Assembly: GCA_017654855.1 (NCBI GenBank)
Contig: CM030336.1
Span: forward strand, 682,001-746,000
Origin: Podospora anserina
Taxonomy: Eukaryota
Length of the DNA: 64,000 bases
Direction of reading: 5' to 3'
Made by a program: the position numbers and the translations under genes. This document shows positions 2,429 through 44,953 of this stretch, piece by piece (the first letter of the stretch is position 1; the number at the start of each line of letters is the position of its first letter). Below the pieces are notes generated by a model. The model was not told the DNA's origin and ran no database searches. It saw only the letters and a list, made by a program, of their open reading frames with translations.

Positions 2429-4743
2429 TCAGTGGGCATTGCCATTCTTCTCGTTGTCATTGCAATTCCCATGCATCTTCTCCCAAGCGCTCCTCTTCAT
2501 CCAAATCTCCCCAATCGGACAACCATCCTTCTCAACACAGACCCAATCGCCAATACCATGCTCCTCTCCAGCACGCCTCACCCCTCTCCCACCACCACCA
2601 ATGATCAAATTTCCTGGCCGATATTTCTCGTGTGCCTTCATGCGGCGGATCACACTGCCATGGATACGGGCATCCTCAGGAATGTCACGAACTTCCCCGC
2701 AGGGGAGGGGCCAGCGAATGGGCTTCCAAGAGCCATCTTCTTGAAGGTCCATACGGCGGAAGGGGAGATACCTGGGAGGGCAACTGTTAGCCGGCCGGCA
2801 TACACGGTAAGGCAGAAAATAGTGGCTACGTACTCCATAATCTTCCAAGCTAACACTGAAGTCTTGCTCAGCCCGCAATCAAACTCGAGGGAGTCGTGAA
2901 TTCGAGCCGTGTGCGCTTTGTGCATCATTTCTCGGAACGACGAAGGCTTCTGCTGCCCGCTGCAGTCACCCTCCTTCTCGCCCGACCTTTTGGCACCACT
3001 GCTCCCGCCGTTGGCCTGAGAAAATGAGTCCTTGAAGCTGGATTGCTGGAACAACTTGGGTGTGCTCATACTCGAACTGCGGATCATGATGTTTGGAATC
3101 GGTGGGTTGGGCGGGCCCGAGGTCTCGTGAGGGGCAATCTCGTCATTGAGGGGCTGTTCCTGTCCTGACGACGGCGGCCTATACCCATGATCCTCGGTGT
3201 CGGGCTCGTCGTGGTCATGGAGAGCCTCGACGCAACCCATCTCGCGGACCTTCTCCTCGTCAAACGTCAGGCCTGCCTTGATCGCTTCGTGGACCATCCA
3301 GACCAAGGGAACGTGGCTGGCGACCTTGGAGTCCTCAAAGGTTTCCTCCCACCCACCACCAATATCCGCATGGCCTCCTGAGAACCACACTTCGTCGATG
3401 TCCTGATGGCTTTCCTCCTCGTCGCTTTCCTCACTCTCGGCAAATGATTCGGCGTCCTCCAGATGAGGATGGGGCTCGATTGATACCTCGGATTTGACGT
3501 CGTTCTCCGTCGGGCGCGCCGAAGCCTCGGTCTTGTTGGAGTGCCGTGATCGTGTCGAGTGGGAGCGCCTGCGATATGGTTCTGGATCCGTGGGCACGCC
3601 CAACGTGGGCCGTCGCCCTCTGTCGTCCTGGCCCTGTTTACCTTGGTGGGCGGGAGCGGCAGCGAATTTTCGTCTGTACTTCTCGTGGAGATTGTGGAGA
3701 CCATCGGACACTGGGTGATGGTGGTGCTGCTTCTTGCCGCTCTTGCTCTGGTACACCAAGTCCTGCCGGAACTTGGCGCGGCGCTCATCAATACTCACGG
3801 CGTGACGGACAACCTTTGCCGAGGTGCGCGCCGTGTAAGGAAACTTGCTCCTTTGCATCCAGGCTGCCTCAAACTGAGGTACACTGTTGACTGTGTCGAA
3901 GAGGCCGAGAAAGCGGATGCGGCGGACAGGGCGGGAGAAGGTCTCACGAAATCCCTTCATGAAGGTGTACATCTCCCTCTTCTTCTGGTTCCCTTCTGGA
4001 GTGTTGTCTCCCTGCCTGCTCTGCCAGTTGGAGAAGGCTTTCCACGCAAACACCACCATCTCCTCGTTACCGTGCGACAGCAGTCCGACATAATCCAACA
4101 TCTCGGCCAAGAATCGCGCAATGTACGCCCCACGCGAGAAGCCAAAGATGTAGATCTCATCTCCAGGGTTGTAGAACCTCATCAGGAACCGATAGCCTCC
4201 CACAACATGATGATCGAACGAGGACCCAATGGCACTGTCTTTGGCTTTCATGTACCAAGACTTGATACGCGCCACCGTTCCCGTGCGAGTCAAGCTGCTC
4301 GAGACAACATAGGTGCCAATTCCGGCTTCAGGATACAGTTTAGTACGACGCCCTACAACACAATGTAACACAATTCTTTATCACTCACGTTGATAATAAT
4401 GAACTAATCAGGTTGTCAGCACTCCAGTCAGATAATAGACGGTATCGAAATACTTACATTGATCCCTCGCTGTCCTGTCGAGCATTCGAAATATCTTCAA
4501 AATGTTGCTGTCGCTGTCGTCGCCATGGAACTTATTGCCTGTGCCATCGAAGCACAACACAATCTTGCTCGGCTTCCGGTGGCGAGACTGATGGTCTCTG
4601 TCTGGACCCATTGGAGTAACAGGACGAGATGGCAGATGTGTTGAGAAAAAGTCTTCGTGTGCGTCAATGTGGGACTCCCGATCTGGACTGGAGACTCTGA
4701 CACGGTTGCCCGGCCTCTCGGGCATGAGGTGCGACTTATCCAT
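2429..4743 (-). CDS. DUF2235 / Tle1-like alpha/beta-hydrolase (putative phospholipase), multi-exon
   Basis: Motifs IVLCFDGTGN, YIFGFSRGAY (GxSxG), LGLFDTV, HAVSIDERR and EVWFSGGHADIGGG across ORFs 4408-4818, 2650-4371 and 2429-2878. Start assumed at the first in-frame ATG (4743). Confidence 0.85.
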
Positions 4744-6344: not shown

Positions 6345-9300
6345 ATGTCAGATTACAACGGCAACGGGCACAAGGCCTCGAACGGCACGGGAGTTACTGC
6401 TCTCAATGGCTCAAGCTCGAGCCACGGGAGCTCGTCTGCCCACCAATCACGCGAGGGAATGGAACTTGTCGCCAGTCAAGCAAAGCCAAGGCCTACTCCT
6501 CTTGACTTGAAGCCCACGGGTGCAAACAGAGCTGGCGTTGCCAATGCCTTTGAGCGGTATGGCCAAGTGATGCAGTCATCAGTTGCTCCGTTGCCAAATC
6601 AGCATGGCGCCGACACATTCAGCCGATCGAAGAAATGGGGCAAACTCAGAGACGATGTCAAGCAACTGCGGCTTGCTGGTAAGTGTCATGTGATGATGTG
6701 GTGACTGGTCCGGTCGGAACACCGTTACTGACCTCGAGACAGACTACAAGACCCTTCTTGGTGTGGTCAAAGCCAAGGTCAAGGGCGAGAAGATCAAGGA
6801 TGACAAGACTATGGCCATGGAAAAGGTCATCCAGCTTGTGTCCAACTTGCCTAGCAACTCCAAGACACGCACAGAGCTCACCAACTCGTTTTTGAGCGAG
6901 CTGTGGTACACCCTTGAGCATCCCCCTTCGATGTATGTGGGTGAGAAGTTCCAGTATCGCCAGGCTGATGGGTCATATAATGTGAGTTTGGGTTTGTCAT
7001 ATCACTCGATTGCTCATCCTCATGCTGACGCCTTTCCAGAATGTTATGTTTCCCCAGCTTGGTGCCGCTGGCACTTCGTACTCCAGATCGGTGGCTGCCA
7101 ATGTCGTTCGGCAGGGCGCTCTTCCAGACCCCAATCTCATCTTCGAGTCAGTCATGAAGCGGACGGAGTACACAGAACATCCGAACAATGTCTCTAGCAT
7201 TCTATGGTATTGGGCCAGTATCATCATTCACGGTAGGTGTTCCTGTCAGCTGCCGGTTGTCGACATAATCACTAACGCACTGTGCAGATCTGTTCTGGAC
7301 AGACTACAGGGACATGAGCAAGTCCAAGACCTCTTCGTACCTGGACCTGTCTCCTCTGTACGGCAGCAACCAGGACATGCAGGACACCATCCGCACCTTC
7401 AAGGACGGCAAGATCAAGCCTGACTGCTTTGCTGACAAGCGCCTCCTGGGCATGCCACCCGGTGTCGGTGTGTTTTTGATCATGTTCAACCGCGTCCACA
7501 ACCATGTGGCTGAGAACTTGGCCCGCATCAACGAGGATGGCAGGTTTTCTCCCCCCAGCCCCAACCTTGAGGGCGAGAAGAAGGAGGCTGCGTGGAAGAA
7601 GTACGACAATGACCTGTTCCAGCATGCTCGGTTGATCACCTCTGGTCTGTACATCAACATCACACTGCTGGATTACGTCCGAAACATTGTCAACCTCAAC
7701 CGTGTTGATACCACCTGGACTCTTGACCCCCGTGTCGAGACTGGCATAAACGTTGACACCAAGGAGGGTGCCGAGCGTGGTACCGGCAACGTGTGCTCGG
7801 CCGAGTTCAACCTCTGCTACCGCTGGCACTCGTGCATCTCGGCCAAGGATGACAAGTGGATTCAGGATTTCTACTATGATCTCTTCAAGAAGCCGGGCAA
7901 GGACCTCTCTATTCATGAGCTCATCATGGGCTTCGGCAAGTTCGAGGGCATGATCCCAGATGACCCTGCGGAGCGTCCCTTCAACAAGTTCCAGAGAGGG
8001 CCGGATGGCAAGTTCAACGACGATGACCTTGTCAACTGCATCTCAGACGCCATTGAGGACCCCGCTGGATCTTTTGGCGCCCGAAACGTGCCCGAGTCGA
8101 TGCGGGCGGTTGAGATTCTCGGGATCATTCAAGGCCGCAAATGGAATGTTGCTGGCTTGAACGAATTCCGCAAGCACTTCGGCCTGAAGCCCTACGAGAA
8201 GTTCGAGGACATCAACTCCGACCCGGGTGTTGCTGAGTCTCTTCGTCGCCTGTATGATCACCCCGACTTTGTGGAGCTGTACCCTGGTCTCGTGGCGGAG
8301 GAGAGGAAGGAGCCCATGGTTCCTGGTGTCGGCATTGCGCCTACCTACACCATCTCCCGTGTCGTCTTGTCGGATGCTGTGTGTCTGGTGAGAGGTGACC
8401 GCCACTACACCATCGACTACACGCCACGAAACCTCACCAACTGGGGTTTCAACGAAGTTCAGTATGACTTGAACATCAACCACGGTTGCGTCTTTTACAA
8501 GCTCTTCCTCCGGGCTTTCCCCAACCACTTCAAGTACAACTCGGTCTACGCGCACTACCCCATGGTGACCCCGTCGGAGAACAGCAAGATTCTCAAGGAC
8601 CTCAAGCGCGCTCATCTCTTTGACTTCTCCCGGCCAGGCAGGATCGCCACACCCACCGAGGTCACCTCGTACGATGGTGCCCAGCGCATCTTTGCTGCTG
8701 AGGACAAGTTCAAGAGCACCTGGAATGCTGGTGTCGCTGGCATCCGCGCCAAGGCGAGCCCTGAGCTTTCTGGCGATGCTGCTGTCCACGACAGGCACCG
8801 CACCACTGCATCTCGGTCGCTGTTCACCCCTGAGCTGGGCACCCAGATCAAGGCCTTCTACGAGAGCTTGACCGACAAACTGCTCACCACCAAAAGCTAC
8901 ACTTTGGTACCCGGCAGCAAGTTTGCTGACCTTGTCCGCGACATTGCCAATATCGTGCCAACCCACTTTGCCGCCAGTGTCTTCGGCCTTCCGTTGACAA
9001 CCAAGGAAAACAGAAAGGGCATCTACACCGAGCACGAGCTTTACGCCGTCCTCCAGATCATCGCCTCTGCCCTCTTCGTCGACTCGGAGCCTGTTAAGCT
9101 CTTCCCCGTGGTGGAAGCAGCCAAGACGGTGGCTGGTCAGCTCGGCACCCTCGTCGACAAGACGGTCAAGAGCCCCAAGGCAGCCAAGAACAGCGTCCTC
9201 AACACCTTCGGCGTCAACTTTATCAAGGAGCTTAAGAAGGCCGGTTTGGCCACGCACGACATCACTTGGAACCATGTCCTCCCCACCGCTGCGGCCCTCG

Positions 9301-9934
9301 CCTCGAGCCAAGGGGAGCTGTTCACCCAAGCAGTGGATTACTACCTCTCCCCCGAGGGTGCCGCGCACGTAGCGGACATTACCGCCATTGCCTCCCAGCC
9401 TTCATCTTCCCAGAACGACGCTCTCCTCTTGGGTTACGTCCTGGAAGGCATCCGCCTGTCAGGTTCAGCTCGGTCTCACTTTGAAGCCACAACCGCCGGC
9501 ACTGTCATGGCGTCCAATGGCACGGAGCTGCACATCCAGCCCGGCAGCAAGGTTACCATCAACTCTGTATGCCCCTCTTTTACCTTTTTGTCCCCTCCAG
9601 TACTAACCTCTCTTGTTTCTAGTCAACCGCCTCCCGCGACGCAGCTTACTTCCCCGAGCCAGAAACCGTCAACCCCCGCCGTCCACTGGACAAGTACATC
9701 CACTTTGACGCCGGTTCCCATGCCTTCCTGGGCAAGGAGATTAGCCAGATTGCCCTCACAGAGATGTTCCGTGCTCTGTTCAAGAGGAAGAATGTCCGGC
9801 GCGCGCCTGGTCCGCAGGGAGAGCTAAAGAAGGTGCCGAGGGCGGATGGGAACGGGGTGGATTACCTCAGGGAGGACTGGGGTGCTTTGACACCCTTCCC
9901 TGTTACCATGAAGGTGATGTGGGATGAGGTTTAG
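6345..9934 (+). CDS. Ppo-family fatty-acid dioxygenase (heme peroxidase plus P450-like domain), PpoC/10R-DOX-like
   Basis: YRQADGSYN, WASIIIH, TSSYLDLSPLYG, EFNLCYRWHS and VELYPGL motifs; several GT..AG introns; last exon ends ...PFPVTMKVMWDEV* at 9932-9934. Confidence 0.9.
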
Positions 9935-11500
9935 AGAATGGAAATGCGTTTTAGTGATGGGGAGGAGGACGTAATAGGTTATGCACCCGGACTGTCATGT
10001 CCAGGAAAATCCAACGCAGATTTCGGATGTCATACTGCCAAAAGCTGAGGAAGATTCCTCTCCCTCTCTTCTACACTCACACCCCTCAGTCTTCCAATAA
10101 ACCTAAATCATGTAAGCGTCGACAAAAAATAAAAATCGAAAATAAAACGGGCGATAAAAAGATATAGGTACGTCGGTACCTCGAGTTTGTTATTTTAAGC
10201 TCCTAGGCGGAATTACAAAGTATAGCTCTTTACATTTCTGGACACTTACTACTCCAATCTTTGTAGCCGAAATCATGATTATGTATATCCCATCGTAAGG
10301 AATGCGTTTTGCTGAGGATTCAGCTAAACAACTGGATCGCGCTTGGATTTCCGTGCGCGTTTGTACTGGACTTGGCTCATCACTGCGGCACAGCCCAGGC
10401 CAGCACCTCAGGTATATAGTTATTTGCTCCCTCTGGCCCAGACACAAATCTCGGGTCTTGGGATCTTTAATATCGGGGCGATATGCTATAATCCTGTAAG
10501 ATCTGGACGGCTTTTGGGATACCGGCGGTAAGGGGCTGAGAAGCCAAAGTGTAAGAGAACGAAACGATGGAGCATGCCCACAGAGGCAATATTTCCTTCT
10601 ATCTGGGAGGGAAATTGTCATCGGATGACGAAGACTGGACTCCAAACGTCGAGGCCGTTTGGGCAACGATTCGGTTCGCAATGACCACGGGCCGACTAAA
10701 ATACCTGACCGGCCAACCACCAGTCTCCACCGACCCTACACCTATCACCCTGTGCCACGGACAGCAGGTACCGCTTCAACCGCCGAAGATTGGACGCTGA
10801 ACACTTAAAGAACCAACTTCAAGCCAGCCTACTAACAATCTTACTAATCTACGAGAATCCGAAGAGAAATGATAAACCAGAGTGCATAAGCTAGAATGGA
10901 CTTTGCATGGGCTTTAAGGAGATTAGGGTATATTTTGGGAAATGTATGCTTCAATTGGTAATAGTTGCCCTTTTGGCTTAGCCGCCGGGCGTTAATAAAT
11001 TATTATTATTAATAACATTCGAGATGCTGACTAAGGCAGCTCGGCGCTTACGTGATGTTTCTCACAGCGCAATGACAAGTGAAGGTACCAATCAGCCTCT
11101 ACTCAAATACGTGCTATTCAATGCCAAGCTTGGCATATCTCCTTTCATCCTAGTTTAGCATCCCCCTTCGCTCAGCTATCCAGCATACACTTCCTACTCG
11201 CTCGCACTCGATTCTCATCCTATTATCAGCTCGACATGACCTGAATAACATTATTCGGCCCACCTTTTCGTGGAGCCAATTATGAATTTGGCACCGACGA
11301 CTTCACAACTCGCAATAAGGTCTGGAAAGCCCCAACATATGTCTATATCCAAACTAATGCGGCCAGCAAAATGATTTCGAAGCTGATAAAGAAGATGGCG
11401 TTATTAAAGGCGATGTAGCGGGTATCCCATATCAGTACTATAACTCAAAATAAGAGACGAACGGTAATAGAACTATTATCTCGGTCAGCTGAAAAGCGGG

Positions 11501-11909
11501 TGTCACAGTTAAGCCAACAGGCAAGACGGACCATGTGCGGGGCACAAGACGCACAGCCAATCGCTAGTGGAACCAATTATAGGACGGGAGGATGGACCAA
11601 TAAGAGGCGGATCATCCAGGGCATAGGGAATCATGAATGATTCCTGGGAATCATTATGATTCTCGAGAGTCAGCCATGATCCTTAAGGAATAGAATGGTC
11701 CAGGGCTTGGCAGTAGGTCTATATATACGGAGGAACTGGCTGGTGTAGATAGACAGTTCCGCAGTATGCAATTCAAGTTGTATTCACGGCATCTTGTGTT
11801 TATATTGAGACATCTTGTTGTGCACTGTTTAGCTGCACCGAACCAGGATTATTCAGAAGTACCTTCAACCAGTATCCCTTTCAGAGGTTCTGGATAGGGG
11901 TTCGTCACA
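11501..11909 (+). mobile_element. Solo LTR (409 bp), crapaud-like
   Basis: TGTCAC...GTCACA ends, a 5-bp direct repeat GCGGG at 11496-11500 and 11910-11914, an internal TATA box, and a 3' half shared with the LTR ending at 20141. Confidence 0.9.
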
Positions 11910-12695: not shown

Positions 12696-15600
12696 TTATA
12701 ACACATTATGATGTCCAACCTTCCCATTGAAATCAAATCGAAAAAGCCCAACCTGGCCAGAAGCACATCCTAGGGCGATGGTACAATTGTGTACTGCTGT
12801 ACATGTTGGCCGATAGTTAGGAGGAAGCCAGATAAGGTTCTTCCCATATCGTGTAATCCACTTATTACCGACAAAGAGAAAACCGTTGCCCGGTTTTTGG
12901 TCGGTAAAGTTATTTGCTGAACTCGGGGTTATCCTCAGCAATCCTCGATCTGTTTCAAGGTTGTCATTATCCAAAAACGATAGACCATTAACAATGCTAT
13001 GCCCCTCGAGGGTCCGCCAGTGCTCGCCGGTAGCCACATCCCAGAGCCGTACCGTGTTATCACGTGAAGCTGACGCTAGTGTGGCACCATCCGGCGAGAA
13101 CGCTACCGCTGTAACAAACCCGCTGTGCCCCTCGAGGGTCCGCCGGTACTGGCCGGTAGCCACATCCCAAAGCCGTACCGTGTTATCGCCTGAACCTGAC
13201 GCCAGTGTGGCACCATCCGGCGAGAACGCTACCGCTGTAACCCATCTGCCATGCCCCTCGAGGGTCCGCCGGTGCTCGCCGGTAGCCACATCCCAGAGCC
13301 GTACCGTGCCATCGCCTGGACCTAACGCCAGTGTGGCACCATCCGGCGAGAACGCTACCGCTGTAACCTCACTGCCATGCCCCTCGAGGGTCCGCCGGTG
13401 CTCGCCGGTAGCCACATCCCAAAGCCGTACCGTGTTATCGCCTGAACCTGACGCCAGTGTGGCACCATCCGGCGAGAACGCTACCGCTGTAACAAAACTG
13501 CCATGCCCCTCGAGGGTCCGCCGGTGCTCGCCGGTCGCCATATCCCAGAGCCGTACCGTGCCATCGTATGAACCTGACGCCAGTGTGGCACCATCCGGCG
13601 AGAACGCTACCGCTGTAACCTCACTGCCATGCCCCTCGAGGGTCCGCCGGTGCTCGCCGGTAGCCACATCCCAGAGCCGTACCGTGCCATCGCCTGGACC
13701 TAACGCCAGTGTGGCACCATCCGGCGAGAACGCTACCGCTGTAACAAAACTGCCATGCCCCTCGAGGGTCCGCCGGTGCTCGCCGGTAGCCACATCCCAA
13801 AGCCGTACCGTGTTATCGCCTGAACCTGACGCCAGTGTGGCACCATCCGGCGAGAACGCTACCGCTGTAACCCATCTGCCATGCCCCTCGAGGGTCCGCC
13901 GGTGCTCGCCGGTCGCCACATCCCAAAGCCGTACCGTGTTATCGCCTGAACCTGACGCCAGTGTGGCACCATCCGGCGAGAACGCTACCGCTGTAACCTC
14001 ACTGCCATGCCCCTCGAGGGTCCGCCGGTGCTCGCCGGTAGCCACATCCCAAAGCCGTACCGTGTTATCGTCTGAACTTGACGCCAGTGTGGCACCATCC
14101 GGCGAGAACGCTACCGCTGTAACCTCACTGCCATGCCCCTCGAGGGTCCGCCGGTGCTCGCCGGTCGCCATATCCCAGAGCCGTACCGTGCCATCGTATG
14201 AACCTGACGCCAGTGTGGCACCATCCGGCGAGAACGCTACCGCTGTAACAAAACTGCCATGCCCCTCGAGGGTCCGCCGGTGCTCGCCGGTAGCCACATC
14301 CCAAAGCCGTACCGTGTTATCGCCTGAACCTGACGCCAGTGTGGCACCATCCGGCGAGAACGCTACCGCTGTAACCCATCTGCCATGCCCCTCGAGGGTC
14401 TGCAGACACGCGTTCCACTCTAAGTCAACCATTGGCAGTACTGGGATCCATTCAGGAATATAACCACAGAATATTCCCCTGATTATACTTTTCATTGGCG
14501 CAAAAATAATTGCGGAAGTATAAGTCTGAAGGGGACAAATGTCGATAATCTGGCGGAAGCTAAGAATAAATCGTACTGCATCGTGTAAAAACGCGGAGAT
14601 CGTGGAACTATTACCGGGCTATATATTTCGTGTTAGCGAATATTTATAAATCTACCTTTGTACGTCTTACACTAAGGAGACCCTGTAAATCCCTAATCAT
14701 TCCAACACTTGTAGATAGTCTCCCAAGGAGACTTAGCGCTTCCAGCCAGTGGAGGAAATGACGTTCGAGGAAGGTGTATACTTGATGGTTATCGCTTATA
14801 CGAGAACTGCTTTGCTGAAAGTGATAGACCCAATATAGGCACGCATACCGGACATCTGATGGCAAACATGAGTCGATGACTGACGACTCAATATCGGCAC
14901 GAGCTGTTCCAGGCATTCCCAGATCGCAGATGTCCTTCTTCAAGTAATGAGAAAGAAGCTCCAAGCATCTACTCGCAATTTTTCCGTGGGTTGCACCCCT
15001 GTCTATCCAGAACGAGTTGGTGCCCTGTTTGTTGGGATCAACGAGAAAGTCATGGAATGACAAATGAAACATCCTAACCGGGGATGTAGGAGAGACCGGT
15101 ACGCTAAGGACGGAGTGAAGTGTTTCAAGTCTGCGAATAACGACCTTCTCTTGTATATCAAGAAGTCGGGCTAAAGAGCATATCGGGAGAGGTTCGGCTA
15201 AGAGCACAATTGGGCCCACGACCATCCGGAATTCATCAAGAAGGGATCTGTTAGATACTTCGGAACCGACAAGCAGCCGATCAAGGACTGGGCGATATGT
15301 TTTGTCTAGGTTGTCGATCTCGGATTGCTGTGTTCCTGACTGATATTCCAGGATCTTTGCTAATTGATCACCGGGATCACACCATGCTGGGTCCCGGATA
15401 AAACGGCAAACAGTAGCTGCAAAGATAAAGAGGGGAACGGCCATCTTGACCAAGTCTTGGACAATCTGGGGACCAGGCCAATCGTGCGGAAGCTGCCGCC
15501 CACCAGGAGACAGATCATTATAGTCGTTTCGGATTTTTGCAAGCTCAGAGTCCAGATATGCAGCGATGTCGTGCTCGATAATTGACTCTGGGATTTCATG

Positions 15601-17309
15601 CAAGACGAGATCCTGGTATTTTCCCTTAATCTTATTGAAGCCAAGTCGGACTGGCAACTCAGGTCGGCTTGTGAGGAAAGCTCTTAGCCGTACTGAACTC
15701 AGACTCTTTGCTTGTGACAACAGGGAAATGATATCCCTGATATCATCGTCCTGTTCGCACTCATCAAGGGCATCAATCACCAGGACAATTGTCTTGATGT
15801 CGTCCAAACTGCCTCTTTGGTTTTCCAACGGCTTTAGGATCAGCTTCTCAAACTGCTTACTCGGCAGTTTGTTGCAGATGAAAGGGTCAGCCTCAATAGC
15901 AGCCTTGATATACGATGCCAAACTAGGCTCTTTGACAACAAGCTGAGCCGCAATGGTTGTAAACAGCAAGACGGCCTTGCTCCGGTCTCTCTCGCCTCTC
16001 TTAAAGAAGAAGCTGGCACCGAGAAGATTTTGGTCCGCAAACGATTGCGCGACTGTGCGTGATATGGTGGACTTCCCAGTTCCTGCCATGCCGTTTAGCC
16101 AGAAGATGCATTCGCCCTGCGGATCGTCCGCCCATGCCATTATGTCCCGCTGGAGGCCAACTCGGGTATCAGGGTGACATCGCGCATCGTGCTCGTCCGT
16201 GTGGGAGTCAAAGGCAGCACCGTTCGCAATGGTGAGCTTGTCAAGGATGGCATCGCGGATCGTCTGCGAATTCGAGCGTATCTCGTCAAGCACACCACTA
16301 CTGATGGTTAGAAACCTTAGAACTTGGAGTTGGGGGGTAGAACATACGTCATCTTCCCGTTAATCCACTGTTTAAGATCGTCAATGGAGTTATATCCCTC
16401 CGGCGGAATCTCAAGCGCTTCCAGAAGACCGTGTGGGGAGACGGGGGTGTCAAAAGACGCCCTTTTCGTCAAACTCTCCCTGAACCTAGTGCCATCTCTT
16501 GCAATTTCTTCGGTTGCCGTTGCCAACTCAGCTCTACCCCCAATCTTATTTGCGCGCTTCTTCAGTTTATCCTCCATGTAAGCCAAGCAGAGCGCATAAC
16601 AAAGAGCGTTGCCATGCGCCATATCTATCACGATCTCATCCTGGCGAGTAAGAGATGAACCCTTATACAAGAGCGGGTGTGCAAGCTTGTTGTAAAGATC
16701 TTCCGCGATAGTCGTGACTTGTATCTCGAACATCACGTCGCAGAACTGAGAAAGGGCTCCGCATTTCGCTTTTTCCAAGCTGACGCGATAGTTGCGAGTC
16801 TCGTAGGCACCGAACCGTGTTTTCCAGGACCGGCCAACCTCACGGTCACGGACGAAAATAACCGGCTCCTCTTCCTTCCGAAAACTTTCGTTGATGAAGC
16901 AATCGGCTTCCTCCATATCGTCAGCAAATTCGAGGATGATCCTGAGTCCGACAAGATCATGAATGTTACTGAATATGTCAGAGAAGCTCTCGAATTGCTT
17001 TTGGCTGCGATCCAAGAGCGCTTTCTCCCGCCGATCGAGTGACTTTCTGATTGAATCGACCTGCTTAGTTCTGCTTTTGACTTGGCAGTCAATAGCTCTG
17101 CACTCGAGAGCACTTTTGCAAAATTCCTCCAGTCTCTCCCTCATAGCGTCGTACTCATTTAGCAATTTAGGCCAGACGTCGTTGACGAAAGCGCTTTTAG
17201 GATCTGGGCTAACAGGCCCCTCGGTCATTTGATTGATTTTCACCCGCAGTGATTGATTTGGAGCATCACCGTCGCCCGCTTGAGGCGGAGCTTGCGAATG
17301 TACATCCAT
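12696..17309 (-). CDS. NLR: N-terminal RelA/SpoT-type nucleotidyltransferase + NACHT + WD40 repeats (about 1504 aa, 3 exons)
   Basis: Exons 17309-16348, 16300-14671 and 14618-12696 are joined by GT..CTAAC..AG introns and sum to 4515 nt, which keeps frame. RelA/SpoT motifs: SRTKQVDSI, IHDLVGLRII, GAYETRNY, FEIQVTT, LAHPLLYKG. Walker A GMAGTGKST, Walker B LVIDALDEC. Confidence 0.9.
13014..14399 (-). repeat. 11 tandem 126-bp WD40 repeats with high internal conservation
   Basis: Unit TLEGHGxxVTAVAFSPDGATLAxxxxDxTVRLWDVATGEHRR, nearly identical at the DNA level. Confidence 0.97.
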
Positions 17310-17930
17310 GGTATGCTGGCGGCGTAGTGTTCTACCAATCGACCAAATGAAGTGCTGATCGTGGAGGTGATGGGGCCTTGTCTCAAAGGTTGACGGACTC
17401 GTAGGTAGGCAGTACAGAAGTTGGATAAGGGAGATAATTAGCAGCCAAAGGCTCCTGGAGCGACGACAAGGAGCCAGGCAGCTGTTCCGCCATTGCATTG
17501 GGCATCCAGCTAATGCTGCAATTCCTGCAGCTACCTGTGTCTATCGGCCTACATGAGCGAATCACACCGTGCCACATGACGAAGATAAGGTCTGTGCTGG
17601 GTTTGAATCATGCCGTGCTACGCGACGCACATAGACGGCCTGCAACGAGGCACTTTGCAAGGCAGCCCAGGGCGGAAGGCTTACTGCGCCACAACCTCAA
17701 GCTGCACGTGATATTAGCGACATGCATATCGCACTACATAAGGCAGTCGAACAAGGTGCATTAATCTCAATCGTTGGACACTGAGAGTTCTTAACAGAAC
17801 TGCAATCTGAGGTTTGGAGACTTCCACGCTTATGAACTTGTACGGGGATTTACAAACCTCAAGCTGATTCTTACACACACTTCTTCCCTCTCCTTCAGAT
17901 CGCTATCCTTATAAAGGTTGGACGAGGAGG

Positions 17931-19418
17931 ATGAACTACGAAAAAGGATCATACAGAGATTTTGTCCAATCTCGATGTCAAACCAACCCTTGCGTCACTG
18001 GATTAGCCGACTATTTGAGATGTGGGCCTGGAGCTGCAAGTACCATCGTTACTCTCGACTACTCCCGGAATGGACAATCGGTACTGAATCCTCTAACGGT
18101 AGCCGAGGTTGATCTGGCCAGACTGATGGGCGCCACCTCTACAACCGCTGGCCGGATTGTGCTCGTCGAGAACATCCAACCCCATCTAGTCAGTTTTCTC
18201 GGCGAGATTTTTGATGTGGATCCAATCTTCTTTGCCGGCCACGTCACCACCGACTTCAAAGACATCGAGAGAGCACCGCCTCCTCCTTCACTTGCGTTGT
18301 TTCCATCCCAGATTGCTGAAAATGGCTATCTCCATCTCCACTATCAGCAGGTATTGGACCTGGGAAGCGCAGACGCGTTCACATCTTCGTACAGTCTGAA
18401 ATCGGACTCCAACGTTCCTCGAAATGTCAGACGCCTACCGCATCTATCAGGCCGACAGCTTGCTTTGGCTCGAGCGTGCTGTTCTATTCTAGTGAAAAAG
18501 ATCAAAGGCATATGGATTTGTAAGTCTTGCTCAGATATTCGGTGCATCTTGACGGCATCTCTAACAGTAGTAGGCCTAATCCTGGTGGATCCCCCTGTAA
18601 ATATGGTTCTTGAGACGTTGGGGTTAGGCGGCCGAAAGTCACATCCAAGTATGATGTTGCATGGAGGATTCGAGGAATTTGAGCAACCGACGTCTTTCGC
18701 GTCTTTCGGATCTACCACGAGCGATCGTTTACCAGATAAGAAGTCGATGCTCAGCAACCTGCTCCGCTACTTCCGCCACCAACCACCTGGGTTCATGATA
18801 GCCGAGCCTAGCATCTTGAGCCTCGGCTACTACCCGATACGCATAGTCTTAGCTGAGTGGATTCTTTACAAGCTCCTGATGAGTCGTTACTTGAAATATT
18901 ATGAATATACTCTGCACGACATCGAGAATCGACTGCACGATAGCGACATTATCGACCTTCAACGTTGGCGGCGGCGGAGCATGCAAAGCCGACACAAACT
19001 AATTCTTCTCTCTGAGTTCATCGATTATTGGTTACAACAGGAATCCAACAAGCAGCCGTGGGATTTTATACTGAAAGATATCAAGCATGTATCGTCACAG
19101 CTAGAGCTTTACAGCCGCTCGCTCGAGCATATGGTCCCAGTAGCAACATCGATGGTACAGCTGCTCGACTCGCGGCGGTCGATACAAGAGGCTGCCAACG
19201 TTAGCCGGCTCACTTTTATTGCGCTGGTGTTTGTGCCGCTGTCTTGGGTCGCCAGCCTTTTCAGCATGTCAGAAGATTACTCTCCAGGACACAAGAGCTT
19301 TTGGGTATATTTTGCTACTGCACTGCCAGTTATGATTCTAGTCTTGCTTTTATCAACTGTGCAATGGGATCGACTAGAGGGAAAACTGGACAGGATTTGG
19401 GTAGTTTTACGACGGTAA
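17931..19418 (+). CDS. CorA-like membrane protein (C-terminal two-TM hairpin)
   Basis: A coiled segment is followed by SIQEAANVSRLTFIALVFVPLSWVASLFSMS..FWVYFATALPV, which resembles the CorA TM1-loop-TM2 with GMN replaced by SMS. Probable in-frame intron from 18520 to about 18573. Confidence 0.8.
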   Translation: MNYEKGSYRDFVQSRCQTNPCVTGLADYLRCGPGAASTIVTLDYSRNGQSVLNPLTVAEVDLARLMGATSTTAGRIVLVENIQPHLVSFLGEIFDVDPIFFAGHVTTDFKDIERAPPPPSLALFPSQIAENGYLHLHYQQVLDLGSADAFTSSYSLKSDSNVPRNVRRLPHLSGRQLALARACCSILVKKIKGIWICKSCSDIRCILTASLTVVGLILVDPPVNMVLETLGLGGRKSHPSMMLHGGFEEFEQPTSFASFGSTTSDRLPDKKSMLSNLLRYFRHQPPGFMIAEPSILSLGYYPIRIVLAEWILYKLLMSRYLKYYEYTLHDIENRLHDSDIIDLQRWRRRSMQSRHKLILLSEFIDYWLQQESNKQPWDFILKDIKHVSSQLELYSRSLEHMVPVATSMVQLLDSRRSIQEAANVSRLTFIALVFVPLSWVASLFSMSEDYSPGHKSFWVYFATALPVMILVLLLSTVQWDRLEGKLDRIWVVLRR

Positions 19419-19737: not shown

Positions 19738-20141
19738 TCTCACGCTTTTGGAAGACAGTGGGGACACAAGGAACCAATCAGGGCTGGACCGGGCGATCGA
19801 GCGGGGCTCGCGGTGGTGGACAAACGGACCAGTAAGATGGGGACCGGGGACCGCGGCGGGGCTCACGGTCCACGGTCCAGTATCGGCCAATCAAGAGGGG
19901 ACCGAGGACCGTCTGTAAGTCAACGGTCCACGGTCCCCTGATCTATATATACGGAGGAACTGGCTGGTGTAGATAGACAGTTCCGCAGTATGCAATTTCA
20001 AGTCACAATCGTTGATATCTAGACTGTTGTGATTGAGACAAGTCATTTGCTGTACACTGTTTAGCTGTACCGAACCAGGATTGTTCAGAAGTGCCTTCAA
20101 CCAGTATCCCTTTCAGAGGTTCTGGATAGGGGTTCGTCACA
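19738..20141 (+). mobile_element. Solo or recombined LTR, crapaud-like (about 404 bp)
   Basis: The 3' half (TATATATACGGAGGAAC...GGGGTTCGTCACA) matches 11720-11909 and the 5' half differs. Start is degenerate (TCTCACG) and no TSD is visible. Confidence 0.8.
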
Positions 20142-20247
20142 CCCTGATTATATCCTGATTAGCTACTTCCTATCTAATCTAACGATTAGCTAAGCGAGCC
20201 CTGCGCCGCTCACACTGTTTGACCTACTTGTTGGCTTAACTGTGACA
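20142..20247 (-). mobile_element. Truncated LTR 5' fragment in opposite orientation
   Basis: The reverse complement begins TGTCACAGTTAAGCCAACA, identical to the start of the LTR at 11501. Confidence 0.8.
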
Positions 20248-20455
20248 CACGCGTAAGGAGAAAACGGAAGTTATAATTAATTTTAGTTACGGTAAGTATA
20301 GCCGAACCGTCCTTAGGCATACTTTAGCTTAGGGTAATGCTTACTACGCTCACCTTTTGCTCACCTTCTGAGACTAATACGGACAGAGCCCCAAGATATT
20401 GTCGGGTGTGACTATATAGGTAAATGTACTCTCGGAAAGTCTGACGAGAAGCTAG

Positions 20456-24715: not shown

Positions 24716-26754
24716 TTAGTTCTTGATATACCAATCAGGATGCTCACCAACCCACTTCTTGACCTTCAACCCAGAATCGATCTTGGGGAAGGGGTTAGTA
24801 GGCCAGTATGCCCTCCAGGCATTGCAGTTGTTGTTGTGCTGGTTCTTGTCCGCCTGGCTGAAACCGTTGCGCAAGTCATTGGGGCGCTCGAGATACTGCA
24901 CCGACAAACCGCCAGACACGTGCCAGGCAATGTGGCAGTGGAAAAGCCAAGCACCGGGGTTGTCAGACTTGAAGGCGATGAGCAGCCATCCGTTGGCGGG
25001 AAGCATGGCGACGTCGCGACGGACCGGGTTGGAGCTCTTGAGCAGGGCCATGTCAGTGGCGGGATTGAAGCGGTAGCGTGTCTGAGGAACGCCGGCCGGT
25101 TGGTCGGGGGAGCGGCCGACGACGAGGAAATCATGACCGTGAAGATGCATCGGGTGCGGAATGCTGAAGGGGCCGGTAGGGTCGTTCTCGATGAGCCAGT
25201 AAGTCCACTGGTTGACGCTGTTGACGGTGATGACGTTGGCTTGAGGAGGATAGCTGGTGTTTTGGGCAATGACGTAGTCAACAATCGGTTTGTCCCAGTC
25301 GACATTAATGGAGCTGCCATTGACCTTCCAGACAAAGAGGGGTGTGCCGCCGAGGGTCAAGGAGACGGGTAGAGTGTTGTTAGGGCGGGGAGTGAAGCCA
25401 CTAGTAGGAACGCTGCGGGAGACAACAGGTGTCAAGTTGTTGAGGTCCATGCAGTTGGCATCAGCAGCAGGAGTGCCAATGTTGGTCGGGAGAGTGTTAG
25501 GAGCTCCCTGGTAGCGGAAGACCGCAGCCGGGTGAGGATTGAGCGAAGCACCGCAGGCAAGACCGCCGCCAAAGGTGGCGTTGAACCAATAGTTCCCAAC
25601 ACTCTTGTTGGCGTCAATAGTGACATCGTAGCGCTGGCCAACGGCAAGGAAGAGACTGTCAACAGTCTGGGCCTGAACGGGAACCATGTCGGCGGCAATG
25701 ATGGTCATGGTGTGATTCTGGAGCTTCAGCTGGAAGTGATCGTGGGTCGAGGTGTTGATGATGCGGAGACGATGACGCTTGCCGGGGGTGAGCGTGACAT
25801 TGGCAAATTTACCAGCGCCGGTCTGGGGATTCTTTCCGTGCCCTTTGAAGAGAACAGTGTCACTGGGAGGGGGACCGCCATTCATGGTTTCCTCAACCAG
25901 GACATCAGCCGGCTTGTGGTAGTAGTCGGTGATGGGGAAGACACCAAGATCGATATCGTAGGGAACCGAAGCAGGACCATTGACCACGATGGTGCCAACG
26001 ACGCCGTTGCCGTATTGGGCCGAGAAATGCGAGTGGTACCAACTGGTGCCATATTGCTGAGCGCGGAACCTGTAGATGCGGCTGCCTCCCTTGGGCGGGA
26101 TAGGGCATTCGGTGACACCGTTGGCACCATCGTGCATGTTTGTTCCTTTCTGGTGGAGACCGTGCCAATGAATAGAGGTGCTGCGAGAAAAGAGTCAGTA
26201 CAAGTTCCATGGGCAGTAAACAATATCAATGTGAGAAACATACCCATTAGTCCTGAGATTGTTGATGACATTGACTTGAATCCAATCACCCCAGTTAGCA
26301 GTAATGGTAGGCCCTGAATCACCTGTTAGCATAGCCCTTGTCAGATGGTACGGCAGTGAACATACCAAAGATGTCACCATTGACAAGCATGACCTTCTGC
26401 TTAACCACGCCATCAGGACCGAGCCAGTTGTCAACTTCGGTCAAGGTCAGAGTATACTATAAGGCTGTTAGTAACCAGGGGCACCATGACTTCATCAAAG
26501 GGGCAAAAGCATACGGTGCGTGTGACTCCGGTGTTGGGAGTGCTGACTTCGTAGTCCGTGTTGATATCAAAACCAGGGGCCCAGCAAGCACGGTTGGCGG
26601 CAGTGTGGCACGAAGACTGCCTCTCTTCGACGGGACGAAGAAGATCACGAGTGACCTCACGGGGCACGCCCGGGAGAGAAGGTGCGGCCAGGACGGCGCT
26701 GGGTGCGACGAGGCCAAGCAGGAGCGCCGCGGCGCTGAAGAAGGACTTCATCAT
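24716..26754 (-). CDS. lac2: Secreted ascomycete laccase (AA1 multicopper oxidase)
   Basis: Signal and propeptide MMKSFFSAAA...VEER; Cu motifs HWHG, WYHSH, HPMHLHGH, HCHIAWH; introns 26457-26514, 26314-26365, 26181-26243; DSGL followed by a C-terminal extension. Symbol given from recalled resemblance to Podospora laccase 2. Confidence 0.93.
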
Positions 26755-35504: not shown

Positions 35505-36788
35505 TTACAACAGCGTCATCCCGACCACAAGACCAAGAACTAACAAATTGACAGACCATTGAGCCAGTGTCGCGATGCTAGTAACAGCAGTTTGTCCCGA
35601 TGGTGGTGGGGCCTCCACAGGAGTTGGCGGTTGCGAGCTACTATTGCCCGCGATTGAAGCATTGGCCCCCAATCCTCCCGTGAGTGGTGTCGTGCCATTG
35701 GAGTGTACCAAGACAGGAATGATTGCCGTCACATCTGCCAGGTTGAAGCACTGCCTCCGGTGGCTGGCGTCGTAGTCAAGGGAAAAGACAGTAACAGCAC
35801 TGAGGCACTTGGGCGCAACGGTGCTTACCGTGTCGGTAGCCTCAAACTGATTGTAGCCAGCATCGGTGTGCATGCGGTTGAAGACGCCGCTCTTGTGGTT
35901 GTACGCAACCTTGACTCCCACGTCCTGGGTGGCCCGTGTCAGAACAAAAGGGGGGTTCGTGCATTCATCGCTTGTCTCGGATGTGATGTAGGGCAAGTCG
36001 ACAGTCACACCGTATCCCTCGGGAAGGACTCGATCTCCGTTTGCCTTGCTGATGAAAGCTTGCACAAGGTTAGAGGCAAGGCGAGCATTGATGGTGGCGG
36101 GATCCTGGAGCCCAGCTTTGGTGCTAGTGTTGAGTGACGAATAGACGGTGGCTTCGTTGCCAGTCCAGAATGCCATGGCGGGGATTCCACGCTCAATAGC
36201 AACGTAAGTGGCGGCCATGGCCCCGGACAAAGTTTCGAGAAAAGCACCTGAGTTTGACCCAGAATTGGGACCCGAGATGACGAGGTCGGGGGCTTCGAGC
36301 CGACAAATGGTAGGATATATGTAGTCCAATGCCACCAGCACCTGCGCTGTCGCTGTGCCATTGTAATACCATATGTGGTTGTCGGTCGGATCAGTTCCAA
36401 GGGACGGTGCGCCAGCTTTCACGAGACCTGCATGTCACCACATGGGTCAGCAACACGTCTTCAAGCAGCAGCTATGTGGGAGCACATACCCCAATCTCCA
36501 TCGGTGTCCAGTCGGGGGTTGGTGGTGAATTCGGCATGGAGACCAGCACCCGTCTGCGCAGCAACAGAGGCAACGACGTAACAATTGTGGCCGATGGAAG
36601 TCATTTGGCGGTAGAGTTCGCGAACACTGGCGGTTCCAAATCCGTCAGCGTTCTGCGTGCCAGTTCTGTTAGTGCATGTCAGGAATGAATAAGTGAGGTT
36701 GTTGATGACAAACCGTGATAAGGATGTTCAAGGCCTCCACGTGAGAAAGCAGAGCAGCAGCGGCTGCAACAAAGGTGACGGTGTGCAT
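35505..36788 (-). CDS. Secreted SurE-like (5'/3'-nucleotidase/acid phosphatase family) protein with a C-terminal GPI/TM tail
   Basis: Signal peptide then ALNILIT|NADGFG; WYYNGT; PDLVISGPNSGSN; two introns; hydrophobic C-terminus. Confidence 0.85.
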
Positions 36789-42100: not shown

Positions 42101-43429
42101 TTGGAAATACAGCTATGGGTACCTGGAGCTGCTGTCCCTGGAGCACCGTTGCCTCTCGTATCAACGCAAAAGTCTTTCGACACACCGCACTGACCCCAGA
42201 TATTGCAGCACGATCGCAAGGGACAGGGGTTCATATTGGCAATATTGGAGCCATCTGTCGGCCGTGTTGAACCTGGCTTCTGAGGGCCACACACAGCGTT
42301 GGCGACGGGGGCCAGGAAGGGGGCTGTCCCTGAGCTCAAGCACATCCTCGTTCCAACCCACAGCAACTGGCACCCATTCCAGCCCCAGGTGTTCTTGTTG
42401 AATGTCTCGATATCGATCACCTGTAGGCCGTATTCGGCGGCACGGTTGGCACAGTTGTCGTCCGGCTTGACCGAGTAATCGAAGCAGGACCCGTCCGCCT
42501 TCGTCTTAGGTCAAAGGTCGGGAAGGGTCCCCTCGGTAAAGCAGACATGTTGCTTGGGACGAAGAGAGCCGCAAATCCCGGGGTTGAGCCGGTCAAAGTT
42601 GAAAGGAGTGATGCCGCACTAGACTGCCAGCTCGGCGCAGCCATTGCCTGCTTCCACCTGCACGGTTCTGCAGGTAGCTCGTTGTTGGAGTGCCTGCGAG
42701 CGCTGCTGAAGTCCATGTCGGAGCGTTCTCGCACGTAGTGTGGAGTTGGTTTGTGTTGTGTTGTCGTGCAAGAGCGTGGAGTTGGCACGAAGAAGTGGGG
42801 TCAAGAATTTGGCCTCACTAGGGAAGGTGGTCGACTCGGTGAAAGAAAGGCAAGTGGCATTGGCCCAGCCTTTGATGGCATCTTGAATAGGTGAAAAGGT
42901 ACTATTACTCATGATAGCGACGCCAAACACATGGGTGCTGTCATAGCCGGACCCACAGAGCTGCATAGCGAGCTGTGGTGTCGAGACATTGAGCCTGTCG
43001 AGGTTGTCTTGCAGAATGCGTAGAGCGGATTCGCCAAGTCCCTGGTTCAGAAGGCCCTGACCAATGTAAATACCGAGTGTAGCCTGGCCAGACTGACCGA
43101 AAATGATGAAAGGCGTGTCCGTCGCGCCATGTCCTCGAGCAACATAGGTACGGATTTGCTGGATCAGGGAACGAATGCCAGCGGCAGGCAATCTAAAGCC
43201 TTCTTCCCACCATCAAATCTCAAGATTGACCTCCATAGTCTCAGCAGTTTCCACATCGGCACTGGCCACAGCCTCCGAAGTTGGAATCTGTTCGAAATCT
43301 GGGCCAAAGGAAGAGCAAGCCTGGATGCGGTGTCCGCACAGGAGGCTCAAACCCCATTGCAGCCACATCTGTGGACAGCAAGAGGCCTACAGCCCCGAGG
43401 ACTGTCGTCTGCCAGGATAAACGAGGCAT
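39105..43429 (-). pseudogene. Subgroup C (killer-toxin-like) GH18 chitinase: LysM x2 + CBM18 + GH18 + C-terminal Hce2/Ecp2-like domain, disabled
   Basis: GH18 motif LDGIDIDWEY; hevein CCNIWGQCG; LysM CRTVQVEAGNGC; Hce2-like CGMSTFEDRT..SPLISDC..VGGQDVIDII..LWGIY. Stops at about 43213, 42619-42621 and 42511-42513; +1 frameshift in a T run near 39980. Confidence 0.88.
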
Positions 43430-44164: not shown

Positions 44165-44953
44165 CTACGCCAAGAAGCCAACCATGACAATAGCAACAGC
44201 GAGGCATTTTATGCCTACCGCAGCACCGGACTGCGCCGCGTTATCCTTGGTCGTGCAATCAGCGGGGCGGTCGGGGTTGAGGGCACTGCACAATCTCTCG
44301 CGAAGGTTATTCTGGATCCTTTCGGCCGTAGGCTCATCAATCTTTACCCGGCAGGGGTCTGAACTGACACCTACGGGGTTGGAAGCGTCCATCAAAGCAC
44401 AAGAGCCCTTGTCTGGGAAGGAAGGAACGGCCGTCATGTTAGAAATGTTGATGGAAACACCAGGAGAAGCATTGCAGGGCTCGTCGTTGGCCGTAACGGC
44501 GACAAGATCCGTTGCCGGGGCGTCCTTTTTGACAATGAAGTGCAAAAGCTCGGTGGAATCATCCCTGACGATCTTGTTTCTGCCGCTGGTCTGGTTGCAA
44601 TATATCCAGCTGGTGGACCAGAATATTTGGAACGCCCCTTCCGCGGTCATGTTGATGAAGGTGTAGGCAAAGTAGGGTTCATAATCGGTCCAGCTGACAT
44701 TGAGGAAGAGGTGATGATTCGAGGGCCCTGACTGGCCAAGGTCGGATATGTTCCGGACCTGATATGAGATTGATGGCTGAAGAAGGGGTCCAAGCTGGGC
44801 GTTTCGGATTGCAAAGACGACTGGCATCTGCTGATCGGTCGTGTATGTCTCGTTGCGTGGGAAAACAAGATCAACTTCCATCACATTGGCAGCATGGGTG
44901 ATGGCTCCAAAAACACCCAGAAGGGGCCACAGGGTCCCGACAAGAAGACGCAT
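44165..44953 (-). CDS. Secreted, probably GPI-anchored Cys-containing protein (DUF7136-like)
   Basis: Signal peptide MRLLVGTLWPLLGV, EVDLVFPRNETY motif, many N-glycosylation sequons, hydrophobic C-terminal tail. Confidence 0.75.
   Translation of the reverse strand: MRLLVGTLWPLLGVFGAITHAANVMEVDLVFPRNETYTTDQQMPVVFAIRNAQLGPLLQPSISYQVRNISDLGQSGPSNHHLFLNVSWTDYEPYFAYTFINMTAEGAFQIFWSTSWIYCNQTSGRNKIVRDDSTELLHFIVKKDAPATDLVAVTANDEPCNASPGVSINISNMTAVPSFPDKGSCALMDASNPVGVSSDPCRVKIDEPTAERIQNNLRERLCSALNPDRPADCTTKDNAAQSGAAVGIKCLAVAIVMVGFLA

What the first reader, a model, noticed from the sequence alone, without database searches (positions are those of the whole stretch)
16348..17309. Eukaryotic small-alarmone-synthetase-like domain with altered motifs
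Seen: the catalytic-type motifs RxK..S (SRTKQVDS), DLVGLR and EIQ are retained. The usual EIQIRT reads EIQVTT, GYxSxH reads AYETRN, and no hydrolase domain is present. Inference: substrate or product may differ from ppGpp, as in toxic SAS enzymes that make (p)ppApp or pyrophosphorylate tRNA, so the domain could be directly toxic. Fungi lack a canonical stringent response, so a bacterial origin is possible.
Basis: partly seen in the sequence, partly recalled or inferred. Interest (0 to 1): 0.7.

Follow-up and report, generated by a model that had tools for sequence, protein, structure and literature searches.

The report
Alarmone-synthetase effector of fungal NWD5 receptor
This is the already described Podospora immune-receptor gene nwd5, whose front end resembles a bacterial stress-signal enzyme; the parts that bind ATP are intact but the pocket that normally reads guanine is rebuilt, so what it makes in a fungus is an open and easily tested question.

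Summary
The motifs are real, but 16348-17309 is exon 1 of a spliced 1503-aa RelA_SpoT-NACHT-WD40 NLR. It is Podospora nwd5 (95-97% identity), whose RelSpo-like N-terminus is in print since 2012 (PMC3321046).

What I add is inference. ATP-donor and metal residues are near-invariant across about 140 fungal rows (R80 138/138, D118 139/140, E195 132/132). The guanine-reading side chains of RelP are replaced (N149→G167, E189→A210, A186→N207).

The nearest non-NLR relatives are a patchy ~430-aa bacterial SAS family (414 GTDB loci); no tree was built.

Best reading (0.4): an NLR-gated ATP pyrophosphotransferase acting on a non-guanine acceptor, arresting or killing the cell. No activity data were found. 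The scan holds no look-alike sequence, only one analogous bacterial NACHT+SAS note.

The parts
16348..17309 (-). Exon 1 (962 nt): RelA/SpoT-type synthetase (SAS) effector domain, aa 1-321 of NWD5
   Evidence: covered by spliced contigs
16659..17075 (-). Pfam RelA_SpoT core (aa 79-217)
17052..17072 (-). ATP-donor motif R80-x-K82-x3-S86
   Evidence: 138/138 rows at each of the three sites; roles by analogy to FaRel2 R64/K66/S70
16941..16961 (-). HDLVGLR: metal-binding D118, adenine-stacking R123
   Evidence: D 139/140, R 128/139; roles by analogy
16791..16811 (-). G-loop GAYETRN: G167 (RelP N149), base-stacking Y169 (RelP Y151), N173 (RelP H155)
16677..16727 (-). E195-x-Q197-x-T199 strand and following helix with N207 (RelP A186), A210 (RelP E189), H211 (RelP H190)
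16298..16347 (-). Intron 1, 50 nt, GTATGT...CTAAC...TAG; joins SAS to NACHT in frame
   Evidence: skipped in contigs of 3 of 3 RNA-guessed runs (3 studies), not in the 1 control run
14671..16297 (-). Exon 2: NACHT (NPHP3_N/T-NACHT type), Walker A GMAGTGKS aa 390-397 (16069-16092), Walker B VIDALDE from aa 494
   Evidence: NPHP3_N E 4.5e-31, NACHT E 4.5e-8
14619..14670 (-). Intron 2, 52 nt, GTAAGA...GCTAAC...TAG
   Evidence: skipped in 3 of 3 RNA-guessed runs, not in the control run
12696..14618 (-). Exon 3: end of linker and WD40 sensor, to the stop codon
13014..14399 (-). Eleven 126-nt WD40 repeats with high internal conservation (mean pairwise DNA identity 93.6%; repeats 1 and 5 identical); amino-acid variation clusters at repeat positions 7-8 and 23-28

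Best explanation
The domain is the N-terminal effector of the NLR NWD5. SHOWN: one spliced, intact 1503-aa ORF SAS-NACHT-WD40, with SAS fold and intact ATP-donor and metal residues. INFERRED from the NWD/HET-E model: a ligand binds the hypervariable WD40 propeller, the NACHT oligomerises, and the SAS domains are brought together through their C-terminal helices as in RelQ/RelP. INFERRED from the pocket: the activated domain moves pyrophosphate from ATP to the 3'-OH of an acceptor that is not GDP/GTP, most simply an adenosine (ADP/ATP, or a tRNA CCA end). With no RSH hydrolase detected in the genome the product is not readily removed, and the cell arrests or dies.
For: Gene; identity to annotated nwd5; 4 of 4 metagenome loci continue from the SAS exon into a NACHT-like exon. 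Catalysis: R80, K82, S86 138/138; D118 139/140; E195 and Q197 132/132; H211 129/133 among 154 rows of 151 proteins, kept while the domain is joined to NACHT or NB-ARC and to WD40, ANK, TPR or HEAT. Acceptor: RelP reads guanine with K147, N149, Y151, A186 backbone and E189 (PMC13710873); here G167 132/134, N207 132/133, A210 116/132 (Glu 4/132), and the K147 position is variable. The Glu is also absent in 2 of 2 adenosine-acceptor tRNA toxins read (Tyr in PhRel, Leu in CapRel). Oligomer: four copies score ipSAE 0.68 with best of 3 controls 0.00, runs agree in at least 80% of contacts, pLDDT at least 78; the mark was reached by 21 of 30 solved homodimers and 0 of 23 single chains (eukaryotes 17 of 29 and 0 of 30); interface mainly aa 201-249. 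No HD_4 in the genome. [quoted passage not shown]
Against: No activity was measured and none was found in print. The fold is closer to housekeeping RelQ/RelP (Z 15.4-17.0) than to CapRel (11.2), Tas1 (10.6) or FaRel2 (7.7). PhRel and CapRel keep the His and Arg lost here and replace the His kept here, so the pocket matches no characterised toxSAS read. The Lys that binds ATP phosphates (FaRel2 K74) is Ser/Thr in 134 of 138 rows, with a Lys one place earlier in 93 of 138. Y169 is Phe in 13 of 134 rows, and Tyr-to-Phe is the impaired mutant used for FaRel2. A210 lies in the predicted interface, so it may reflect packing and not base choice. The oligomer pass may come from likeness to solved RelQ/RelP tetramers, and the job had four copies where the calibration had two. 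Groups were assigned by eye, so the His/Asn contrast is partly by construction. I could not read Tas1, FaRel or FaRel2 at these positions.
Confidence: 0.4

Rival explanations
1. It is an NLR-gated (p)ppGpp synthetase, as the published annotation assumes, used to kill the fungal cell by GTP drain or to manipulate bacteria.
For: Best structural and sequence matches are RelQ/RelP; Y169 and H211 are kept; Dyrka 2014 proposes this role (PMC4986451); overproduced (p)ppGpp can be toxic (PMC12691689 abstract). The invariant N207 or N173 could replace lost guanine contacts.
Against: The listed guanine-reading side chains (K147, N149, E189) are not conserved, and His155 and Arg178 equivalents are also changed. 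The domain is part of a cytoplasmic-type receptor, which suits manipulation of bacteria poorly (inference).
Confidence: 0.25
2. It is a pseudo-enzyme or nucleotide-binding oligomerisation module that signals to a partner and transfers no pyrophosphate.
For: Several acceptor-side and one donor-side residue differ from all characterised synthetases read here; Tyr169Phe in 13 of 134 and R123 changed in 11 of 139 rows; the domain is predicted to self-associate (0.68 against best control 0.00).
Against: Metal and ATP residues are invariant or nearly so across rows that fall to about 36% identity with the query, which a scaffold would not need.
Confidence: 0.2
3. It is an active enzyme whose product is a second messenger for a separate downstream effector and is not itself toxic.
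For: Alarmone synthetases are listed among signal-generating effectors of bacterial NACHT proteins (bioRxiv 10.1101/2022.07.19.500537). The bacterial sister family carries a tentative HEPN-like C-terminus (74 of 77 with a loose RxxxxH-type motif; only sub-threshold Pfam hits), which could be a signal-activated nuclease.
Against: No partner was identified; the only neighbour examined is a divergently transcribed CorA-like gene, and a CorA-like partner was not tested in other loci.
Confidence: 0.15

Closest known systems
Podospora NWD5 (NACHT and WD40-domain containing NOD-like receptor 5; PODANS_5_1230)
   Same: Same gene: SAS exon 95-97% identical; annotated P. pseudoanserina protein has the same exon 1-2 junction; RelSpo-like N-terminus stated in PMC3321046.
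   Different: This allele is intact with 11 conserved WD40 repeats; the database entries hold 0-2 of the repeat motif, and the S+ allele was set aside as pseudogenised, absent or under three repeats (PMC13449251).
RelA_SpoT class of fungal NLR effector domains (Dyrka 2014; Bonometti 2025); divRel/FunRel SAS groups
   Same: Same architecture, including RELA_SPOT-NACHT-WD40; fungal divergent SAS without hydrolase noted in PMC3153485.
   Different: These papers assume ppGpp synthesis and give no residue analysis or assay in the passages I saw. Whether this clade is FunRel could not be checked: the name appears once without members.
Housekeeping SAS RelQ (SasB/YjbM) and RelP (SasA/YwaC)
   Same: Same fold (Z 15.4-17.0), same ATP and metal residues, predicted oligomer through C-terminal helices.
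   Different: About 16-22% identity; far below the NCBIfam YjbM cut-off (23.7 against 320 bits); guanine-reading residues, His155 and Arg178 replaced; fused to an NLR.
toxSAS (PhRel, CapRel, FaRel2, Tas1)
   Same: Same donor site; absence of the RelP E189 Glu in PhRel and CapRel; a sensor-gated immune role as in CapRel.
   Different: Lower structural scores (Z 7.7-11.2); PhRel and CapRel keep GYxxxH and EVQxRT and have Glu at RelP H190; no antitoxin domain or gene here.
Uncharacterised standalone ~430-aa bacterial SAS family (EIQVASVLMHAWxEVEHD), with a few standalone fungal members
   Same: Nearest non-NLR group among the top 150 of 2825 profile hits; HHalign 99.86% over 220 columns; shares the Arg loss.
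   Different: Keeps His (32/32) and mostly Glu (26/32); has a tentative HEPN-like tail and no NACHT; 414 loci in GTDB, no conserved neighbour (at most 5 of 80 loci share one).

Membership tests
RSH synthetase domain (PF04607) | Profile score above the curated cut-off | tested here: met
   39.7 bits against 27
RSH synthetase domain (PF04607) | SAS fold with aligned metal Asp and Glu | tested here: met
   Z 17.0 to 5dec; D118 and E195 align
RSH synthetase domain (PF04607) | Pyrophosphate transfer from ATP | not testable with these tools
   needs an assay
Fungal NLR, NWD family | Effector-NACHT-WD40 in one reading frame | tested here: met
   1503-aa ORF; both introns skipped in 3 of 3 RNA-guessed runs
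Fungal NLR, NWD family | Walker A GxxxxGK[ST] and Walker B Asp | tested here: met
   GMAGTGKS aa 390, VIDALDE aa 494; criterion as in PMC13449251
Fungal NLR, NWD family | WD40 repeats with high internal conservation | tested here: met
   11 repeats, 93.6% mean DNA identity
Fungal NLR, NWD family | Ligand-triggered cell death | not testable with these tools
   no ligand or phenotype found
RelQ/RelP (p)ppGpp synthetases | NCBIfam YjbM equivalog cut-off | tested here: not met
   23.7 against 320 bits
RelQ/RelP (p)ppGpp synthetases | Guanine-reading K147, N/S149, E189 | tested here: not met
   variable, Gly 132/134, Ala 116/132
RelQ/RelP (p)ppGpp synthetases | Homo-oligomer through C-terminal helices | tested here: inconclusive
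   model supports it (0.68, best control 0.00) but may recall solved tetramers
toxSAS toxin-antitoxin modules | Adjacent or fused antitoxin | tested here: not met
   neighbours are the fused NACHT-WD40 and a divergent CorA-like gene; no HD_4 in genome
toxSAS toxin-antitoxin modules | Active-site pattern of tRNA-targeting toxSAS | tested here: inconclusive
   shares loss of E189 but differs at H155, R178 and H190 from 2 of 2 read; Tas1, FaRel, FaRel2 not read
toxSAS toxin-antitoxin modules | Catalysis-dependent toxicity | not testable with these tools
   needs expression test
FunRel subfamily (Jimmy et al.) | Assignment by subfamily HMM or tree | not testable with these tools
   members are in preprint supplements that I could not see

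The most novel reading that the evidence does not exclude
Sordariomycete fungi took a SAS from a bacterial, possibly defence-related, family, wired it to NLRs and rebuilt its acceptor pocket (G167, N173, N207, A210), so that NWD5 is a eukaryotic immune receptor that kills by pyrophosphorylating adenosine nucleotides, tRNA ends or an acceptor not yet described for RSH enzymes, switched on by NLR-driven oligomerisation.
Probability: 0.3. Interest if true: 0.8.

Novelty: already known. Interest (0 to 1): 0.4.

Why it matters
The gene and its domain have been named since 2012-2014, so the finding itself is not new. What the domain makes was not addressed in the papers I could search. If it is active on a non-guanine acceptor, it would be a eukaryotic counterpart of bacterial toxSAS immunity such as CapRel, a new cell-death chemistry for fungal NLRs, and a new RSH specificity class. 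NWD5 is the only PF04607 gene detected in this genome, is transcribed and spliced in related strains, and lies in a laboratory model genus, so the question can be tested directly.

Tried and rejected
Standalone SAS protein: rejected. The frame's stop at 16317-16319 lies inside intron 1. Short 'near' homologues are at least partly exon-1 calls: P0039 and P0041 map to loci that continue into NACHT-like exons. Five proteins with NLR-type motifs (P0101, P0104, P0108, P0142, P0148) show only RelA_SpoT in Pfam, so non-NLR forms are not excluded.

'EIQIRT to EIQVTT and GYxSxH to AYETRN mark a toxSAS': rejected for the 2 toxins read.

Pseudogene or RIP-damaged allele: rejected. One open frame; TA/AT 0.54-0.55 in exons 1-2 against 0.66 for the window.

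Bacterial contamination: rejected by spliceosomal introns and fungal neighbours.

dN/dS and a phylogeny were planned but not run (script machine lost), so direction of transfer and selection are untested.

No run was on record as RNA; the three runs laid are RNA by guess, supported only by their intron-skipping contigs, and are about 95% alike to the window, so they come from other strains or species.

PADLOC gave the window domain only a weak PDC-S33 hit (13.8 bits). Defence context of the bacterial family: 10 of 62 hand-picked immediate neighbours of at least 200 aa (9 of the loci) hit PADLOC at 1e-10; there was no control, so this is a lead only. GTDB tallies at aa 203-211 are forced by the search pattern and were not used.

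The first AlphaFold model (16 sequences, pLDDT 65) was superseded. The ESM Atlas returned only RelA_SpoT clusters. PMC10802352, PMC6793942, PMC7983052 and PMC12691689 gave no role for the His155 or Arg178 equivalents in the passages seen. A phage search with the bacterial domain found only distant SAS (13 records).

Full report
OBSERVATION. The minus-strand frame from ATG 17309 carries all motifs as described. It scores 39.7 bits on Pfam RelA_SpoT (cut-off 27, E 6.8e-10, aa 79-217). All 8 PDB sequences that it matches at E up to 10 are GTP pyrophosphokinases of the RelQ/RelP kind (best E 6e-4). An AlphaFold2 model from a 66-sequence alignment (pLDDT 88.5, pTM 0.77) aligns best to RelQ (5dec, Z 17.0, rmsd 3.0, 181 residues) and RelP (6ewz, Z 15.9); unrelated folds start at Z 8.2.

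WHAT IT IS. The interval is exon 1 of a three-exon gene. Downstream on the same strand lie a NACHT exon (NPHP3_N E 4.5e-31) and a WD40 exon. Canonical introns at 16298-16347 and 14619-14670 give one 1503-aa frame. Contigs from 3 of 3 runs guessed to be RNA, from three studies, skip exactly these two stretches; the 1 control run does not. Those contigs are about 95% alike to the window, so they show splicing in close relatives. Walker A and B are intact. The sensor has 11 repeats of 42 aa with 93.6% mean DNA identity and variation clustered at a few sites; that such sites are the ligand-facing ones in HET-E/HET-D is recalled, not tested. The best database hits are Podospora 'NACHT and WD40-domain containing NOD-like receptor 5' proteins at 95-97% identity. 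It is the only PF04607 match in the genome, and HD_4 finds no hydrolase there.

WHAT IS IN PRINT. Daskalov 2012 states that the NWD5 N-terminal domain is homologous to RelSpo (PMC3321046, passages). Dyrka 2014 lists RelA_SpoT among 12 fungal NLR effector classes and suggests it might manipulate bacteria through ppGpp (PMC4986451, passages). Bonometti 2025 counts 14 T-NACHT NLRs as 82% of the RelA_SpoT class in Sordariales (PMC12258605, passages). Wojciechowski 2022 only mentions the profile (bioRxiv 10.1101/2022.03.16.484565, passages). Atkinson 2011 notes divergent fungal SAS without a hydrolase and suggests transfer from bacteria (PMC3153485, passages). A FunRel subfamily is named once in the Jimmy preprint (10.1101/575399, passages). 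PMC13449251 (passages and first part of section 6) treats nwd5 as an NWD gene; its supplement could not be read and may hold domain and allele data. PMC12222747 had no hit for my terms. Searches showed no assay or residue analysis of the fungal domain; the library lacks most subscription papers.

THE FAMILY. A profile search over 1.84 billion representatives gave 2825 hits at E up to 0.001, of which I saw the best 150. Of long homologues, 30 of 31 list a NACHT-type or NB-ARC domain (one list is cut), and 34 of 41 show one among their top five families; the other 7 show only repeat families there. C-termini are WD40, ankyrin, TPR or HEAT. All 10 looked up are Sordariomycetes. In 4 of 4 metagenome loci the SAS exon is followed by a NACHT-like exon.

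ACTIVE SITE. I tallied 154 rows from 151 NLR-type proteins against 32 standalone proteins; groups were set by eye, and rows include fragments and near-duplicates. Donor side, by analogy to FaRel2 R64, K66, S70, K74, R77, D90, G93, R95, E145, Q147 (PMC11782079, section 8): R80 138/138, K82 138/138, S86 138/138, R93 131/138, D118 139/140, G121 135/140, R123 128/139, E195 132/132, Q197 132/132. The K74 position is Ser/Thr in 134/138, with Lys one place earlier in 93/138. Acceptor side, by RelP guanine contacts K147, N149, Y151, A186 backbone and E189 (PMC13710873, passages; numbering checked): the K147 position is variable, N149 is G167 (132/134), Y151 is Y169 (120/134; Phe 13), A186 is N207 (132/133), E189 is A210 (116/132; Glu 4). 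H155 is N173 (133/134), R178 is T199 (114/132), and H190 is kept as H211 (129/133). So the ATP half is conserved and the base-reading half is rebuilt in a family-wide, non-random way.

COMPARISON WITH TOXINS. PhRel (Phrann gp29) and CapRel SJ46 (identical to 7ztb) are tRNA pyrophosphokinases. Both lack the E189 Glu (Tyr, Leu) and have Glu at H190. The fungal domain shares only the loss of E189. I could not read Tas1, FaRel or FaRel2 at these sites. Structural scores to toxins are lower (CapRel 11.2, Tas1 10.6, FaRel2 7.7).

ORIGIN. The nearest non-NLR group is a standalone ~430-aa SAS family. It matches the fungal profile at HHalign probability 99.86% over 220 columns, and a Streptomyces member matches the window at 30% identity, E 8.7e-18. 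It occurs at 414 loci across many bacterial phyla (80 fetched), with no conserved neighbour and a tentative HEPN-like tail (74 of 77, loose pattern, no control). It has lost the Arg (Ala 27/32) but keeps His (32/32) and mostly Glu (26/32). At least two standalone members are fungal (Talaromyces, Rhizodiscina). This fits bacterial origin followed by fusion to NLRs and pocket remodelling, but no tree was built, so direction and order are untested.

MECHANISM. Shown: gene structure, fold, conservation pattern. Inferred: WD40 ligand binding drives NACHT oligomerisation (NWD model); the SAS domains then self-associate. Four copies of the domain score 0.68 against a best control of 0.00, with runs agreeing in at least 80% of contacts and pLDDT at least 78; 21 of 30 solved homodimers and 0 of 23 single chains reached the mark (eukaryotes 17 of 29 and 0 of 30). 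The interface is mainly the C-terminal helices (aa 201-249), the region that oligomerises RelQ/RelP, so the pass may reflect that likeness; A210 lies in it. Inferred: the active domain pyrophosphorylates a non-guanine acceptor and, lacking a hydrolase, arrests or kills the cell. I put this at 0.4, (p)ppGpp synthesis at 0.25, pseudo-enzyme at 0.2 and second messenger at 0.15.

VERDICT. Real, correctly seen, and already known as a gene and a domain class. The acceptor-pocket pattern and the bacterial sister family did not appear in my searches and make a long-untested annotation directly testable. Interest 0.4. The scan's index held no look-alike sequence and nothing nearby; one note on a bacterial two-gene NACHT plus SAS pair is an analogy that I did not test.

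Noticed in passing
window 11501-11909 and about 19942-20141: Two copies of a dispersed repeat flank the nwd5 plus CorA-like block in direct orientation, about 8.2 kb apart. The left copy runs TGT...ACA over 409 nt and has at least 51 matches in the genome: solo-LTR-like. A 51-nt inverted pair also links 11496-11546 with 20202-20252. Such flanks could favour deletion or exchange of the block.
   Followed up: partly
window 17934-19418 (+): CorA-like gene (PF01544) divergently transcribed from nwd5, about 620 nt from its start; a stop-riddled relative lies on contig C4.
   Followed up: partly
L003-L082 (bacterial loci): Uncharacterised ~430-aa SAS family with a tentative HEPN-like tail, patchy across phyla; 10 of 62 picked neighbours hit PADLOC (HamB, Drt2, Dsr1, AbiTii, AriA-like, REase, MTase and others, no control). 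A candidate single-gene defence system. In 4 Streptomyces loci a second RAK-motif SAS-like gene lies nearby.
   Followed up: partly
P0154, P0162 (and probably P0146, P0182): Standalone fungal SAS proteins (Talaromyces islandicus, Rhizodiscina lignyota) keep the His and mostly the Glu of the bacterial family, so fungi seem to hold two SAS types.
   Followed up: partly
window 59119-61507 (+): HET-domain gene (PF06985, E 3.1e-29).
   Followed up: no
window 39105-42510 (-): GH18 chitinase with chitin-binding region (39928-42510) overlapping, in another frame, an Hce2-domain ORF (39105-40070); may be one gene split by an intron or a frameshift.
   Followed up: no
window 2650-4377 (-), 7269-9827 (+), 24716-26194 (-), 35505-36434 (-), 44165-45109 (-): Tle1-like/DUF2235-type phospholipase domain, haem peroxidase, multicopper oxidase (laccase-like), SurE-like and DUF7136 genes.
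   Followed up: no
window about 17369-17406: Two of the laid contigs carry about 87 extra letters just upstream of the start codon relative to the window (table 8): an upstream indel between strains.
   Followed up: no
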